The notes beneath the pieces were generated by a model. It was not told the origin of the DNA. It saw only the letters and a list, made by a program, of their open reading frames with translations, and made no database searches. This document shows, piece after piece, positions 46,217 through 57,018 of a stretch of 64,000 nt of DNA; positions within the stretch are counted from its first letter, which is position 1; every line of letters starts with the position of its first letter. The stretch lies in contig DATLXU010000079.1 in assembly GCA_035575515.1 (NCBI GenBank), forward strand, positions 1 through 64,000, written 5' to 3'. The stretch is from Blastocatellia bacterium (GTDB lineage Bacteria; Acidobacteriota; Blastocatellia; UBA7656). The position numbers and the translations under genes are program-made.

Positions 46217-46657
46217 ATGTTTGCGAAAGAAATACTCGATCAGCAGTCTAACGACAAGGACGATTTGTATTTTCAGTCGGCGCTTAATCCATTGAATGAC
46301 GAACGAAAACTTGAAGCGGCGCTCGAAAAAATAGGTCGTGTTCCCAAGGGCTTCGACGGTAAACTGTTTTTGCCTCTTCTGAGCCGTTCTTCTCCAGCCG
46401 TTCGCTTATTGGCAGTGAAGAATATCGGCAAGCTCAAGGATGAATCGTTTCTGGATAAAGTTAGTTGCCTGGCGAAAACTGAAAGCAATACCCTTGTCCG
46501 TCGAGAGGCAGTTTCGGCTATCGGGCGCATGAGAAGCAGATATGCCGTTCCAGTATTAATCAGCTTCCTTCATGACAATGATGCCAAAGTGGTCCTGCAG
46601 GCTATTCAGGGCGCTTCTCGTTTTCAAAACTCTGCCGAAGGTGCAGGAATCGCTTAA
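46217..46657 (+). CDS. HEAT (PBS-lyase-type) repeat protein fragment; continues in another frame into the MTase
   Basis: Repeats AVRLLAVKNIGKL, LVRREAVSAIGRM, AKVVLQAIQGASRF. Low-GC DNA. Confidence 0.45.
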   Translation: MFAKEILDQQSNDKDDLYFQSALNPLNDERKLEAALEKIGRVPKGFDGKLFLPLLSRSSPAVRLLAVKNIGKLKDESFLDKVSCLAKTESNTLVRREAVSAIGRMRSRYAVPVLISFLHDNDAKVVLQAIQGASRFQNSAEGAGIA

Positions 46658-47602
46658 AGCTCTCACCGATCACCCTAGTGAACTGGTACGAGAAGCCATT
46701 GAGAAAGAGTTTGGTCCGAAGACCAGCGGGAGAGCTAAAAACCCCTCTCACACATCAAGCCCAAATTTTTTGAAGAACGTCCTCGTTCACGGCGATGTGC
46801 GCGAAGTCCTAAGCATGTGCCTGACGAATCAGTTCATTTAACATTCACATCGCCTCCCTACTACAACGCGCGGGATTATACGATATACAAGAGCTATGAG
46901 CATTATCTGGAATTCCTGGTTTCGATTTTCAAAGAGGTTCATCGCATTACGAAAGAAGGGCGATTCTTTGTTTTGAATACGTCCCCAGTGCTTATTCCGC
47001 GCATGGGCCGAAGCCACGCCAGCAAACGGTACCTGATTCCTTTCGATATACATCCTTTGCTGACTCGGATAGGATGGGAGTTCATTGAAGATATTATCTG
47101 GGTGAAGCCTGACCCGAGCGCAAAGAATCGCAATGGCGGCTTCTTTCAACATAGAAAGCCACTTGGCTATAAGGCCAATTCAGTTTCTGAGTACGTCATC
47201 GTTTATCGCAAAAAGACAGACAGGCTGATTGATTGGAATATGCGGCAGTATCCCGAAGAGATAATTAATGAGAGCAAAGTCGCCGGTGATTATGAGAAGA
47301 CAAATGTCTGGAAGATAGCCCCAACGACTGACAGGATTCATTCCGCTCCATTCCCAAAAGAGCTGGCCGCGCGAGTTGTTCAGTTTTACTCATTCAAAGG
47401 CGACCTAGTGTTTGATCCTTTTGCCGGGATAGGCACCGTTGGGCAGGCCGCTTTAATGTTAGGCAGGCATTTCTTTATGACTGAGCAGGAGAAGCAATAC
47501 GTCAATAGAGCAACCGCAGCTTTGCACGAACAGCGAACGTTTTTTTCGGATGCAGTCAGAACCTGCTCTTTGGATGAGTTCAAGCAGGAAACAATTAGAT
47601 AA
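46572..47602 (+). pseudogene. beta-class DNA methyltransferase (SPPY type, likely N4-cytosine or N6-adenine), frameshifted; the N-terminal part is in a different frame and follows a HEAT-like segment
   Basis: Frame A (46572-46841): ..LPKVQESLKALTDHPSELVREAIEKEF..NFLKNVLVHGDVREVLSMCL. Frame B (46817-47602): PDESVHLTFTSPPYYNARDY ... VFDPFAGIGTVGQAAL (motif IV before motif I). The junction at ~46818-46822 is a -1 shift in a C-run. Confidence 0.55.
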
Positions 47603-53394: not shown

Positions 53395-54090
53395 TTATTT
53401 TTTCTTCGGCGATCTCCACGAAAGCGACGATGCGAGCGGGCGCGCTTCCTGCGGCATCGGCACGTCGCCGAACAGAATATCTCGCGCGTTCATCTCTTTG
53501 CCGTAAAAATCGCGGTTGTCGTCTTTGTCCTGCTTGACGACCGCCCCGTTCAAAGCCACGCCCGCGAACAATCCCTTGGTGCGCGAGTAGCTCAATATCT
53601 CAGCGTCCATTCTCGCGTTGGTTTCGGCTGACGTGTGGCGGCCAACAGGGCCTGCCGCGACCGACGCGTCTGCGCCGAGCGTGAATTTGTCTCCGATAAG
53701 GCGGTCCATGCCTTTGCGGTTCATTATCAGCATGACAACATCAACCTGCTGAAAGCCTATCTGAAGGCCGAAGCTGCCGCCTTCGATTGTAAGAAAAGAC
53801 GGCGCGCTCCACTGGCCGCCAGCCTTACGACACATCACAACGCCTTTGCCGTAGCGCCCGCCTATGCCGAGACCGCCTTTTTTGAGCCCGGGAACAATGG
53901 CAATGCACTCGGCTTTGTCGAGCAGCTCTTCAGGAATGCCCTTGTCAGGCGTGCGCATAATTTCGGTGAAGACTTCTGTCGCGCGATTGAGTCGTTTTAC
54001 TTCGTCGCTGCGCTCGCTCGGATCGCTTGCGGCAAGCGCGGCTGATGATATGAGCAGGATTGAAAGTGAGGAAATAAAAAAGAGCTTCAT
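53395..54090 (-). CDS. secreted SYLF (Ysc84/DUF500) lipid-binding domain protein
   Basis: Signal peptide. LSYSRTKGLFAGVALNGAVV and GGLGIGGRYGKGV patterns of the Ysc84 actin-binding-like family. Confidence 0.55.
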   Translation of the reverse strand: MKLFFISSLSILLISSAALAASDPSERSDEVKRLNRATEVFTEIMRTPDKGIPEELLDKAECIAIVPGLKKGGLGIGGRYGKGVVMCRKAGGQWSAPSFLTIEGGSFGLQIGFQQVDVVMLIMNRKGMDRLIGDKFTLGADASVAAGPVGRHTSAETNARMDAEILSYSRTKGLFAGVALNGAVVKQDKDDNRDFYGKEMNARDILFGDVPMPQEARPLASSLSWRSPKKK

Positions 54091-54343
54091 CGGTTGGACC
54101 TCCGCTTGTTAGATTCGCTGGTACAGGAAAAGTTTACAGGCTCGGTTGCCAATTGTCAGCAGCCGATTGCCAATAGTTGAGTTTGCGTCTTGATCTTGCG
54201 CGGTTTTCTGCTACGATCCGCGTTCCGAAAATGGGTGCTTCTATCTCACAAGACATCTTTATGCCGACTGTTACCGCGCCACATTCATCAACCGGAAGCG
54301 ATTCGGACAATCGGCCAGCATCGAGCCGCGCCGCCAGGTTGCC

Positions 54344-56098
54344 GTGTTTGTTGATGAGCAGCGCGGTGTCAGGCTCTATCAAGGCGATGCCCTTGAGATG
54401 CTGCGCGAGGCTAAGAGCGAAATCTTTGATGTGATATTTGCCGACCCTCCTTGTTTTCTATCCAATGACGGCATCACCTGCCAGGCGGGCAAGATGGTCA
54501 GCGTCAATAAAGGAGTATGGGACAAGGCGCAGACGTTTGAAGAGATTCACGCTTTCAACCTCGCGGGCTTCAGCGAGTGCCGCCGGTTGCTGAAGCCAAA
54601 CGGCACTATCTGAGTGACTGGAACATCGCACAACATCTACAGCGTGGGCTTTGCGCTGCAAACGCTCGGATACAAGATTCTGAACGACATCGCGTGGCAC
54701 AAGGCCAATCCGCCGCCTAACTTGTCGTGCCGATACTTCACGCACGCGACGGAGACAATCCCTTGGGCGAAGCGCGAGACGAAGGCGCGGCACCTGTTTC
54801 ATTATGAAGAGATGAAGCGCGAGAATCGCGGCAAGCAGATGCAGTCGCTGTGGCACATCACGCCACCCGGCCCGTCCGAAAAGCGTTACGGCAAGCATAC
54901 TACGCAAAAGCCCGAAGCGTTGCTTGATCGAATCCTTCGCGCTTCTTCAAATCCTGGAGATATAGTGCTTGACCCCTTCTGCGGCAGCGGGACAGCGGGC
55001 GTCGTGTGTGTTCGGCTTGAACGTCGTTTTGTCGGAATTGACTTGATGGAATCTTTTCTTGAACTCGCTATTGCCCGGCTCCGAGATGAGATTCGTGTGA
55101 TGCGCTTTGTATTCATACTCGATTCCAGTTTTGCAATGGCTTTATGGCAGCAGCAGGCAATAACGCAAGATACCAAAGCGACGTGGGCTGAGATCGTTTC
55201 TTCTGCGCTCAGGTTGCTTGGCGGCGAAGCGCGCTTGAAAGAGATAAACGAAATTGTAGGACATAACCCACGCACGCGAACAAATCGAACTTGGGCTTGT
55301 ACGGTGCGCCACGTCGTGCGACAATCGCCGCGCTACCGAAAACAGCGACAGGAGTTGAACTCAATGAGGCAGTATGAGGCTGTTATTCAGGCGATGAAAG
55401 AAAACGGCGGGTACGCAACGCTTGGCCATTTGTATCAGGCGGCGCTGAAGATACCTGATGTTCGGTGGGGCACGAAGACACCCTTTGCCAGCATCCGTAG
55501 AATAGTCCAGCAACATCCAGAGTTCTTTAGAATCAGGCCGGGATTGTGGGCGCTTACATCTGAACGAGAGCGCATCCTTGAAAAGTTCAAGGTCCGAGAT
55601 GATGCGCCACGCAAGGAAGTCGAGGAATTTAATCACAGTTACTATCAAGGGCTGATTGTGGAGATAGGCAATTTCAAACGCTACGACACATACGTTCCGA
55701 ATCAGGATAAGAACAAACAATTTCTATCGCAGCGACTTGCTGATATTTCTTCGCTGAAGCAGTTTCCCCCATTCACCTACGAGCATCTTCTGAAGCGGGC
55801 GCGAACTGTAGATGTGACATGGTTCAACGCCAGAGGTTTCCCAGACGCTTTCTTTGAAATCGAGCACTCGACAGACATTCACAACTCTCTGCTAAAGTTT
55901 GTCGAGTTTCAGGATTTTCGCATTCAGTTTTATATAGTCGCCGATGCTGTGCGGGAGAGAGAGTTTGAGCAGAAGAAAGGTTACAGCGCATTCAATCCAA
56001 TTCGCGCTGACCTGAAATTTCTAGATTACGAATCGCTGTCAACATGGCACTCGAAGCTATCGGAGAGCATAGCAATAGAAAAAGCGATGGGGCTATAG
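54344..56098 (+). pseudogene. beta-class N6A/N4C DNA methyltransferase interrupted by one in-frame TGA (54611-54613), with a ~330-aa C-terminal winged-helix + nuclease-like extension
   Basis: Motif IV ADPPCF. ...LKPNGTI-TGA-VTGTSHNIYSVGFALQ, where the family consensus has Trp at the stop. WHKANPPPN, HTTQKPEALLDRIL, motif I LDPFCGSGTAGV. Same frame on both sides of the stop. Low-GC DNA. Confidence 0.65.
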
Positions 56099-56118
56099 AA
56101 GTTAAAAGCTGCCTATTA

Positions 56119-57018
56119 TCAACTTGCCTGAATTTGTTGCACTTCGTTCTCGAAAATGTAACTGAGCGATTTATAGACTAACTTCGCCGTTAAAAAATCT
56201 GGCGCGGGGTTGCCCTCGACGGGAGCAAGCTCGGTCACGTCCATCCCGACGATGTTGCGCGAACGGGCAAGCGCCCGAATTATTCCGAGCGCGTCGTACC
56301 ATCCCAATCCTCCCGGCTCAGGCGTGCCCGTCGTTGGAACCAAACTCGGATCAAGCCCGTCAATGTCAATCGTGAGATAAACATTTTCAGTCAAATGAGA
56401 GAGGGCATCTTCGTGCCAGTCGGTCCGGCCAACAACATCTTTCGCCCAATAAATCTTCGTAGGCGTGTTGGGCAACCGCTTCGCTTCGGCTTCCGATATT
56501 GACCTGATCCCGACTTGAACAACGGGACAGACCTCGACGGCGCGGGCCATAATCGAAGCGTGCGAATGAATCGTCCCGTCATAGCTTTCGCGCAAGTCTG
56601 CGTGCGCGTCAATTTGAAGAACTGACAGATTCTTCACCCTGCGACCGAGCACGCGAATAACCGGTCCCGTTATCGAATGCTCGCCGCCGAGCATCACAAG
56701 AAACTTGCCCGTGTCTAATAACTCTTCCGCGCGAGCTTCTATCTGATTCATCATCGCTTCGGGCGGATCAATCGCGGGAAGCTCCTCAAGCGTGTGAATC
56801 CCCAGACGATAGACCGACCCCCCGATTTCTTCGTCGTACAATTCCATGTTGCGCGAGGCTTCGATGATGGCGCGCGGGCCGCGAGCCGCGCCGTGCCCGT
56901 AGCTCACCGTTCCTTCATACGGCACGGGCCACACGAGTATGCGCGACGATTCAAAGTTGGAGTATTCAGGCTCGGCTATCCCGCCGAAGTTGAATGGGAG
57001 ATGTTGTGATTCAGACAT
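56119..57018 (-). CDS. speB: agmatinase (ureohydrolase family)
   Basis: GGEHSIT, DAHADL, SIDIDGLDP, Mn-binding motifs of arginase/agmatinase. ATG at 57018 (MSESQHL). Confidence 0.75.
   Translation of the reverse strand: MSESQHLPFNFGGIAEPEYSNFESSRILVWPVPYEGTVSYGHGAARGPRAIIEASRNMELYDEEIGGSVYRLGIHTLEELPAIDPPEAMMNQIEARAEELLDTGKFLVMLGGEHSITGPVIRVLGRRVKNLSVLQIDAHADLRESYDGTIHSHASIMARAVEVCPVVQVGIRSISEAEAKRLPNTPTKIYWAKDVVGRTDWHEDALSHLTENVYLTIDIDGLDPSLVPTTGTPEPGGLGWYDALGIIRALARSRNIVGMDVTELAPVEGNPAPDFLTAKLVYKSLSYIFENEVQQIQAS

What the first reader, a model, noticed from the sequence alone, without database searches (positions are those of the whole stretch)
54344..56098. Horizontally acquired MTase with a C-terminal wH/nuclease-like domain, silenced by a single TGA at a conserved Trp codon
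A low-GC + strand gene is wedged between minus-strand core genes. The beta-class MTase core (DPPCF ... HTTQKPEALLDRIL ... LDPFCGSGTAGV) is intact except that LKPNGTI-W-VTG has TGA where Trp (TGG) is expected, a one-base change. TGA is a normal stop elsewhere in the window, so this is not recoding. The ~330-aa C-terminal extension has an Mrr_N-like winged helix (GGYATLGHLYQAALKIPDVRWG...FFRIRPGLWALT) and a possible PD-(D/E)xK-like core (VDVTWFNARGFPDAFFEIEHS). That makes it a candidate single-chain MTase-nuclease (type IIG/IIL-like, or an MTase-Mrr chimera) that was inactivated, possibly because of self-toxicity.
Basis: partly seen in the sequence, partly recalled or inferred. Interest (0 to 1): 0.7.

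Follow-up and report, generated by a model that had tools for sequence, protein, structure and literature searches.

The report
Dead methylase beside intact orphan nuclease
This is not one fused methylase-nuclease gene but two genes: a decaying DNA adenine methylase and, running on from it in the same frame by accident, an intact, widespread and uncharacterised nuclease gene that often outlives its restriction-modification partners.

Summary
The TGA at the conserved Trp codon (54611-54613) is real. Six independent assemblies of this lineage carry it.

The "~330-aa C-terminal extension" has two parts. One is the methylase's own small winged-helix (wH) tail, damaged by a deletion that also removed its stop codon. 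The other is a separate 244-aa gene (55364-56098) with its own AGGAG and ATG.

The methylase is a multi-lesion pseudogene: DPPY to DPPC, the TGA, and six further changes at invariant positions. Most sister assemblies add an 8-bp frameshift.

A close relative has speB and Ysc84 about 56 nt apart, so the ~2-kb cassette is an insertion. In other genomes the nuclease sits beside GATC-type modules, beside methylase remnants, or most often alone.

One puzzle remains. An unrelated cassette (L019), with an otherwise pristine methylase and an intact DpnII gene, has TGA at the same Trp codon.

Verdict: an ordinary decaying restriction-modification cassette, wrongly read as a fusion. The retained nuclease family is moderately interesting.

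The parts
54091..54343 (+). Upstream leader of the inserted cassette. It lies between the Ysc84-like gene start and the methylase reading frame.
   Evidence: It lies inside the 2.05-kb stretch that is absent from the related contig L097. The consensus scan found no significant promoter.
54344..55099 (+). Core of a beta-class N6-adenine DNA methylase, now a pseudogene. It is probably GATC-specific, by association only.
   Evidence: Pfam N6_N4_Mtase E 4e-52. It is 79% identical to the intact 305-aa methylase that precedes a DpnII gene in L007. Eight deviations at 126 columns invariant in 10 homologues, against 0-4 in close relatives.
54452..54454 (+). Codon TGT (Cys) in place of the Tyr of catalytic motif IV (DPPY becomes DPPC).
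   Evidence: All 10 intact homologues have Y at this position.
54611..54613 (+). In-frame TGA at the conserved Trp codon of LKPNGxxWVTG.
   Evidence: It is present in L001-L006. The same change is seen in the independent cassette L019.
54862..54869 (+). Eight bases (GCCACCCG) present in the window and in L005 but deleted in five sister assemblies, where the loss causes a frameshift.
55100..55363 (+). Remnant of the methylase's own C-terminal winged-helix domain. The wing strand, the stop codon and the spacer were lost through about 60 nt of deletions.
   Evidence: Alignment to the intact 395-aa methylase of L014 and to L095 and L096.
55351..55355 (+). AGGAG, a Shine-Dalgarno-like sequence 8 nt upstream of the ATG of the nuclease gene.
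   Evidence: Read directly from the sequence. L014 has AGGAGA in the corresponding place.
55364..56098 (+). Separate, intact 244-aa gene: an N-terminal winged helix (residues 1-65, HARE-HTH-like) and a C-terminal PD-(D/E)xK nuclease domain of the NmeDI_C family (PF27126). Candidate catalytic residues are D150, E165 and E167; H91 is also invariant.

Best explanation
What is there. The region holds a horizontally inserted, decaying restriction-modification-type cassette made of two genes.
- Gene 1 encoded a beta-class N6-adenine methylase with a small C-terminal winged helix. It is probably GATC-specific. It is now a pseudogene. The lesions are Tyr-to-Cys in DPPY, TGA at Trp, further changes at invariant positions, a deletion in its wH, and a lost stop codon. 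Most sister strains add an 8-bp frameshift.
- Gene 2 is an independent, intact 244-aa endonuclease with a wH reader and a PD-(D/E)xK cleavage domain of the R.NmeDI type. It is translated from its own AGGAG/ATG.
- The continuous reading frame is an accident of the deletion that removed the methylase stop codon.

How the nuclease most likely works (inferred, not shown). It acts on its own. The wH docks on DNA and the NmeDI-type domain cuts nearby. Its activity does not depend on protection by the neighbouring methylase. That would explain why it stays intact after the methylase, and in other genomes the DpnII-type nuclease, are lost.

My preferred reading of its target is a modification-dependent (type IV-like) enzyme that is indifferent to the host's own GATC methylation state. 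I put about 0.4 on that.

Shown: the gene structure, the lesions, the insertion, the fold and the neighbourhoods. Inferred: GATC specificity, nuclease activity and target.
For: Two genes, not one:
- 244-aa family, and a separate gene call in this lineage.
- L014 has a stop codon and a 24-nt spacer between the two genes.
- the 8-bp frameshift in sister strains leaves gene 2 unchanged.
- deletion map and AGGAG.

Pseudogene:
-.

Insertion:
- L097 has speB and Ysc84 about 56 nt apart, against 2.05 kb here.

Fold:
-. PADLOC REase_II gives a weak hit.

GATC link:
- Neighbours are a beta-methylase with DpnII (10 loci), Dam D12 (4 loci), and a methylase fused to a MutH/Sau3AI-like domain.
- GATC observed/expected is 0.51 here and 0.40 in DpnII-bearing loci, against 0.83 for GANTC.

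Independence from the methylase:
- About 44 of 80 species-level loci have no DNA methylase within 1.3 kb.
- About 15 loci have only 5' methylase stumps directly upstream.
- In other cassettes the place after the same methylase-wH gene is taken by DpnI (L096, L177) or by a GmrSD_N/HNH protein (L179). These belong to families known as modification-dependent.
- wH-nuclease fusions studied experimentally were mostly stand-alone, methylation-sensing type IV enzymes (PMC11037411).
Against: - At least 15 loci have an intact GATC-type methylase right next to an intact copy of this nuclease: L010, L013, L016-18, L022, L024, L014, L030, L066, L012, L015, L021 and L067. So it cannot be a DpnI-like Gm6ATC-dependent enzyme.
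- In L014 and L030 it is the only nuclease candidate beside the methylase. That looks like an ordinary type II pair.
- R.NmeDI, which shares the catalytic domain, is a conventional type II enzyme (PMC2095814).
- In a second subfamily (L093, L095) the nuclease's wH is clearly related to the methylase's wH (39-42% identity, E about 1e-11). That fits a cognate pair.
- No activity, target or expression data exist.
Confidence: 0.8

Rival explanations
1. One reading: one 584-aa methylase-nuclease fusion (type IIG/IIL-like, or a methylase-Mrr chimera), switched off by a single TGA.
For: There is no stop codon between the methylase frame and the nuclease frame in this window. Methylase fusions to other nucleases do exist, for example the methylase-MutH-like fusion in L066.
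Against: - The nuclease part is a 244-aa stand-alone family.
- No listed homologue carries a methylase domain. The longest listed is 281 aa and all carry only PF27126. The search lists proteins only up to about 1.75 times the query length.
- L014 has a stop codon and spacer between the genes.
- The frame continuity comes from about 60 nt of deletions and is broken again in sister assemblies.
- There are several lesions, not one.
Confidence: 0.03
2. The nuclease is the cognate, or a second, type II restriction enzyme for unmethylated GATC-type sites. It survives here because another methylase in the genome still protects the chromosome, which would also make the cassette's own methylase dispensable.
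For: - Same-strand, closely spaced or overlapping genes with GATC methylases of two classes.
- Two-gene methylase-plus-nuclease modules in L014 and L030.
- Related wH domains on the methylase and the nuclease.
- R.NmeDI is a type II enzyme.
- GATC is depleted to 0.51.
- A second intact beta-class methylase of unknown specificity lies 7 kb away at 46817-47602.
Against: - Most family members have no methylase nearby.
- The gene spreads across phyla with only a methylase stump.
- Many solo loci show no GATC avoidance, with observed/expected of about 1.
- 203 GATC sites remain in this window.
Confidence: 0.3
3. The TGA does not kill the methylase. UGA is occasionally read by tRNA-Trp and yields the native protein at a low level, so the codon acts as an attenuator or a reversible switch rather than a lesion.
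For: The unrelated cassette L019 has the same TGG-to-TGA change. Its methylase is 77% identical to this one and is not its sister. That gene is otherwise pristine, with one conservative change at 126 invariant columns, and it sits upstream of an intact DpnII gene, which should need a working methylase. Only 101 single-base nonsense changes are possible in the gene, 24 of them transitions, so a chance coincidence has p of about 0.01-0.04.
Against: - In this window the gene also has DPPC, Leu-to-Pro, Pro-to-Thr in HPTQKP, and a truncated wH.
- Sister strains add a frameshift.
- The next base is G, which from my own knowledge is not a notably leaky context.
- Only two of roughly 14 lineages show the TGA, and it was noticed after the fact.
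Confidence: 0.08

Closest known systems
R.NmeDI of Neisseria meningitidis (type II enzyme that cuts on both sides of RCCGGY; Kwiatek and Piekarowicz 2007, PMC2095814). Its C-terminal domain names Pfam PF27126.
   Same: The C-terminal roughly 160 residues carry the same Pfam domain (precomputed annotation). They also give a weak hit to a 351-position PADLOC REase_II model. The fold is PD-(D/E)xK.
   Different: R.NmeDI is 351 aa, has a different N-terminal recognition part, and is paired with a C5 methylase. The protein here is 244 aa with a wH in front. It is linked to N6-adenine (GATC-type) modules or stands alone.
HARE-HTH/wH fusions to restriction nucleases and to N6-adenine methylases (Aravind and Iyer 2012, as summarised in PMC4738411).
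   Same: A wH on the nuclease (Pfam HARE-HTH E 0.016 here; 3.4e-16 in homologue P0154) and a wH on the adjacent N6-adenine methylase. This is exactly the pairing described there.
   Different: The match of this protein to the HARE-HTH model is below Pfam's threshold. The original paper could not be read here.
DpnI and other wH-nuclease fusions that cut Gm6ATC (type IIM/IV; Helbrecht et al. 2024, PMC11037411).
   Same: Similar size, with one wH and one PD-(D/E)xK domain. It is often stand-alone. In sister cassettes a DpnI gene occupies the same position after the same methylase-wH gene (L096, L177).
   Different: The domain order is reversed. There is no sequence similarity to the Pfam DpnI models. 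It coexists with intact GATC methylases and DpnII in at least 15 loci, which a Gm6ATC-dependent enzyme could not do.
DpnII-type GATC restriction-modification cassettes (dpnM/dpnA/dpnB), and the alternative DpnI/DpnII cassettes of Streptococcus pneumoniae (from my own knowledge).
   Same: Relatives carry a beta-methylase, a DpnII-family nuclease and this gene in one operon (L010 and others). One chromosomal hot spot holds alternative cassettes, including DpnI.
   Different: The window's copy has lost the DpnII-type gene, if it ever had one. It sits at a different chromosomal site. The classical pneumococcal cassette has no such third gene.

Membership tests
Beta-class N6/N4 DNA methylase (Pfam PF01555) | Significant match to the family model, with the beta-class motif order (IV before I) | tested here: met
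   E 3.8e-52, 177.9 bits against a cut-off of 26.7. DPPx lies N-terminal to FCGSGT.
Beta-class N6/N4 DNA methylase (Pfam PF01555) | Intact catalytic motif IV, (D/S/N)PP(Y/F/W), and an uninterrupted ORF, as needed for an active enzyme | tested here: not met
   DPPC instead of DPPY, plus an in-frame TGA. Sister strains add an 8-bp frameshift.
CcrM (NCBIfam NF050803, GANTC methylase) | Score above the equivalog cut-off | tested here: not met
   227.9 bits against a cut-off of 830. GANTC is not depleted (0.83) while GATC is (0.51).
GATC-specific methylase of a DpnII-type system | Methylates GATC | not testable with these tools
   Inferred only. It is 79% identical to methylases that precede DpnII-family genes, and GATC is depleted.
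Type IIG/IIL or other single-chain methylase-nuclease | Methylase and nuclease domains in one polypeptide in intact family members | tested here: not met
   Homologues of the nuclease part are 240-250 aa without a methylase domain. L014 has a stop codon between the two genes.
NmeDI_C family (Pfam PF27126) | Match to the family model | tested here: inconclusive
   The local Pfam copy lacks this model. The identical protein P0001 and all listed homologues carry the precomputed PF27126 label. PADLOC REase_II gives a weak hit, E 0.018.
PD-(D/E)xK nuclease superfamily | Alpha-beta-beta-beta-alpha-beta core, with acidic residues at the start of strand 2 and on strand 3 | tested here: met
PD-(D/E)xK nuclease superfamily | Canonical Lys of the (D/E)xK triad | tested here: not met
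   The motif reads E165-I-E167, an ExE variant as in BamHI (the BamHI comparison is from my own knowledge). The alignment suggests K178 on the following helix as a possible substitute (not tested).
   No Mrr family among the Pfam hits at E up to 1.
HARE-HTH domain (PF05066) | Score above the gathering threshold | tested here: inconclusive
DpnI-like Gm6ATC-dependent enzymes | Never coexists with an active GATC methylase | tested here: not met
   At least 15 loci have an intact adjacent GATC-type methylase, 10 of them with DpnII as well.

The most novel reading that the evidence does not exclude
The 244-aa wH-nuclease gene may be a selfish, gene-targeting element that invades GATC-methylase genes near the segment encoding LKPNGxxW. 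That would explain four things:
- Stumps of two unrelated methylase classes lie directly upstream of it.
- Methylase 3' pieces lie downstream of it.
- In L185-L189 it sits in the middle of what in L066 is one methylase-MutH-like fusion gene.
- Lesions cluster at that Trp codon. The same TGA occurs in two independent cassettes, a truncation junction lies at the same codon in L053, and a +1 frameshift lies three codons later in L180-L184.
Probability: 0.08. Interest if true: 0.8.

Novelty: new member of a known kind. Interest (0 to 1): 0.4.

Why it matters
For annotation: a stop-free reading frame made a pseudogene plus a neighbouring gene look like a new fusion enzyme. The check shows how to tell the two apart, using the length distribution of homologues, an intact relative, and strain-level indels.

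For biology: the retained gene belongs to a large family. This search found 3,784 homologues, and the species-genome scan found relatives in 548 places. It is strongly conserved (at least 53% identity across phyla, including an archaeal plasmid) and uncharacterised.

The family is tied to GATC restriction-modification cassettes, yet it routinely outlives them. Working out what its winged helix reads would add either a new restriction specificity or a new kind of modification-sensing nuclease.

If the recurrent TGA at one Trp codon is not chance, it would be a simple natural way to throttle a methylase.

Tried and rejected
- PDB sequence search with the 334-aa tail found no hit.
- Foldseek against the PDB gave nothing significant. 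The afdb50 library was unavailable.
- I asked whether the 266-bp linker is a DpnII remnant. It shows no similarity to DpnII. It is the methylase's own wH.
- I looked for methylase 3' halves downstream of the nuclease in the candidate-phyla-radiation (CPR) loci with a profile HMM. None was found. The conserved downstream ORF there has no Pfam hit.
- I first took the short lengths to mean that all methylase-wH genes are broken. I rejected this because the search appears to list only proteins up to about 1.75 times the query length. L093, L095 and L096 were therefore found with a bias towards fragments.
- A search among 120 short N-terminal methylase fragments for more TGA-at-Trp cases found only this lineage and L019.
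- No GATC or other palindrome is conserved at the Trp codon.
- The promoter and terminator scan showed no enrichment.
- The phage collection gave no match.
- The Aravind and Iyer 2012 paper is not held.
- NCBIfam has no model for the nuclease.

Full report
**1. The observation**

On the + strand, ORF 54344..54613 (89 aa) ends in TGA. ORF 54614..56098 follows in the same frame, so the read-through reads ...LKPNGTI*VTGTSHNIYSVGF....

- With Trp restored, residues 29-242 match Pfam N6_N4_Mtase (E 4e-52). The best NCBIfam hit is CcrM-like, far below its cut-off.
- Every intact homologue examined has TGG at this codon.
- TGA ends 23 of 44 long ORFs in the window.
- The locus was recovered from six further assemblies or read sets (L001-L006). 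All carry the TGA. Five of them also lack 8 bp at 54862-54869, which shifts the frame.

So the stop is real. It is not a sequencing error, and it is not the only lesion.

**2. The methylase is a multi-lesion pseudogene**

I compared it with ten intact homologues.

- It differs at 8 of 126 invariant columns. Close relatives differ at 0-4.
- One difference is Tyr to Cys in catalytic motif IV (DPPY to DPPC, 54452-54454).
- Others are the Trp-to-stop change, Leu to Pro in ETILWA, and Pro to Thr in HPTQKP.
It is not.

**3. The 'C-terminal extension' is two different things**

*(a) Residues after about 250 of the methylase (55100-55363).* This is the enzyme's own small winged helix.
- In the intact relative L014 the methylase is 395 aa. 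It ends ...RRVVRQSAFFETVGRGRYRLRQSLDGPISH*, 24 nt before the next gene.
- The window copy lacks about 27 nt encoding the wing, and about 37 nt containing the stop codon and spacer.
- That deletion is why the frame runs on.

*(b) From ATG 55364, preceded by AGGAG 8 nt upstream, a separate 244-aa gene.*
- A search with these 244 residues found 3,784 homologues, nearly all 240-250 aa. All listed ones carry only Pfam PF27126 (NmeDI_C).
- P0001 is 100% identical and is called as its own gene in GCA_037024555.1 and its relatives.
- The 8-bp frameshift in sister assemblies breaks the common frame but leaves this gene identical.
- Only this gene is low in GC (0.476, against 0.549 for the methylase core and 0.556 for the window).

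**4. Structure of the 244-aa protein**

A 43-sequence alignment gave an AlphaFold model with pLDDT 97.1 and pTM 0.92.

- D150 is invariant and lies at the start of strand 2. E165 and E167 are at least 90% conserved and lie on strand 3. This is a D...ExE variant of the PD-(D/E)xK motif. H91 is also invariant.
- Foldseek found nothing significant, so the fold call is moderate rather than strong.
The gene assignment was wrong.

**5. The cassette is an insertion**

The closest related contig is L097, with amino-acid identities of 91% for deoxyhypusine synthase (DHS), 87% for agmatinase (speB) and 82% for Ysc84.

- In L097 speB and Ysc84 are about 56 nt apart. The window has 2.05 kb there (54090-56141).
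- In 57 more distant relatives, nothing related to the cassette lies downstream of speB.

**6. What the nuclease keeps company with**

I examined 80 species-level genome loci.

- Ten loci have a beta-methylase, a DpnII-family nuclease and this gene.
- L014 and L030 have a methylase and this gene only.
- L066 has a methylase fused to a MutH/Sau3AI-like domain.
- Four loci have a divergent Dam (D12) methylase with a controller-like HTH gene. Three of these also carry a DUF6996/6997/7226 protein. The fourth, L015, carries a PDDEXK_11 protein.
- About 15 loci have only a 5' stump of a methylase directly upstream. The stump is beta-class in ten candidate-phyla-radiation (CPR) loci. It is Dam-class in L084, L025, L027, L035 and L009.
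- L072 has a full-length N6_N4 methylase ORF downstream of the nuclease gene. In L056 and L089 the downstream ORF matches only the C-terminal part of that domain.
- About 44 loci have no DNA methylase within 1.3 kb.

All the partners are GATC-type by family. GATC observed/expected is 0.51 in the window and 0.40 in the DpnII-bearing loci. GANTC is 0.83.

In Pyrinomonadaceae one hot spot, next to a Pyr_redox gene, holds alternative cassettes. After the same methylase-wH gene, the downstream place can instead be taken by DpnI (L096, L177) or by a GmrSD_N/HNH protein (L179).

In L093, L095 and L096 the methylase-wH gene is broken in three other ways: a frameshift, an internal deletion and a 5' truncation. 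These three loci were found through short fragments, so their frequency is biased upwards.

**7. How it probably works**

Established:
- There are two genes. The methylase is dead. The nuclease is intact and keeps every conserved residue.

Inferred:
- The nuclease works alone, with the wH as the DNA reader and the NmeDI-type domain as the cutter. R.NmeDI cuts 12/7 away from its site on both sides (PMC2095814).
- It does not need its neighbour for protection.

What the neighbourhoods say about its target:
- It tolerates both methylating neighbours (at least 15 loci) and their loss (this window and the stump loci).
- It is therefore not DpnI-like.
- It is either a conventional GATC enzyme covered by some other methylase, which I rate at about 0.3, or an enzyme whose target is not the host's GATC state. 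For the second, a type IV-like reader of other modifications is my preference, at about 0.4.
- Published work on wH-nuclease fusions (PMC11037411) and on HARE-HTH fusions in N6-adenine systems (PMC4738411) fits both readings.
- In L093 and L095 the nuclease's wH is 39-42% identical to the methylase's wH. That favours a cognate pair, at least in that subfamily.

**8. An unexplained coincidence**

L019 is an independent Pyrinomonadaceae cassette with a methylase, DpnII and this nuclease.

- It has TGA at the same Trp codon (LKPNGSL*VTG).
- Its methylase is 77% identical to the window's and is not its sister. The flanking codons differ.
- The rest of that gene is pristine, and the DpnII gene downstream is intact.
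- With 101 possible single-base nonsense changes, 24 of them transitions, a chance coincidence has p of about 0.01-0.04.
- Among 120 short N-terminal fragments, no further case was found.
- Nearby lesions do exist elsewhere. There is a +1 frameshift three codons later in a DpnA-like gene seen on at least 23 contigs (L180-L184). There is also a truncation junction at the same codon in L053.
- Possible explanations are leaky UGA decoding by tRNA-Trp, a switch, a hot spot, or chance.
- In this window the extra lesions make a still-functional methylase unlikely.

**9. Verdict**

The finding is a decaying, horizontally acquired restriction-modification-type cassette, misread as a fusion protein. 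In kind it is known: a beta-class methylase with a wH, next to a wH-PD-(D/E)xK nuclease of a Pfam-listed family. It is a new member rather than a new type.

Interest is moderate. It rests on the uncharacterised nuclease family that persists after its partners decay, and on the repeated TGA.

Noticed in passing
window 46217-47602 (+): A second, intact beta-class DNA methylase (46817..47602, 261 aa, SPPY motif IV, Pfam N6_N4_Mtase 4.9e-40). A 146-aa HEAT-repeat ORF precedes it. No nuclease gene is adjacent and its specificity is unknown. It could matter for whether the chromosome is still methylated.
   Followed up: partly
L019 (CAXSFM010000013.1), about 1,560 nt upstream of its nuclease gene: The same TGG-to-TGA change at the same Trp codon, in an independent and otherwise pristine methylase that precedes an intact DpnII gene. 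An independent Logan assembly also has it (P0391).
   Followed up: partly
L010, L012, L014, L015, L095, L096, L178 (Pyrinomonadaceae and other Acidobacteriota): A chromosomal hot spot next to a Pyr_redox gene, with a malic-enzyme gene on the far side in several of these loci. It carries alternative GATC-related cassettes, including one with DpnI in place of the NmeDI_C-family gene. This recalls the alternative dpn cassettes of pneumococcus.
   Followed up: partly
L185-L189 (3001-4888): A 161-aa N-terminal methylase fragment, then the 244-aa nuclease gene (4-nt overlap), then a 66-aa ORF and a 128-aa MutH-like fragment. The nuclease gene sits inside what is one methylase-MutH-like fusion gene in L066.
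   Followed up: no
L180-L184 (2099-4642): A classic Dam-class methylase, DpnA-like methylase and DpnII cassette. The DpnA-like gene has a +1 frameshift three codons after the same Trp (LKDNGTIWISRNIA*). The fragment was found on at least 23 contigs, and the five loci examined come from different samples and share the cassette.
   Followed up: no
L042, L058, L063, L070 (about +830 to +1280 after the nuclease gene): CPR (candidate phyla radiation) loci carry a conserved ORF of about 90-150 aa (...KRRPITRAFYART...) downstream of the nuclease gene. It has no Pfam match and travels with the methylase stump and the nuclease gene.
   Followed up: partly
L090 (Halobacterium hubeiense plasmid pSTJ001, 5001-5729): A full-length homologue (48% identity) of the nuclease on an archaeal plasmid. 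It is annotated as hypothetical and has no methylase nearby. Distant homologues of the catalytic domain on bacterial plasmids (L091, L092) are annotated as 'type II restriction endonuclease' and are also solitary.
   Followed up: partly
tool behaviour: the search for homologous proteins appears to list only proteins up to about 1.75 times the query length. The maximum was 291 aa for a 166-aa query and 168 aa for a 97-aa query. Short queries therefore return only fragments, so the absence of full-length hits is not evidence.
   Followed up: yes
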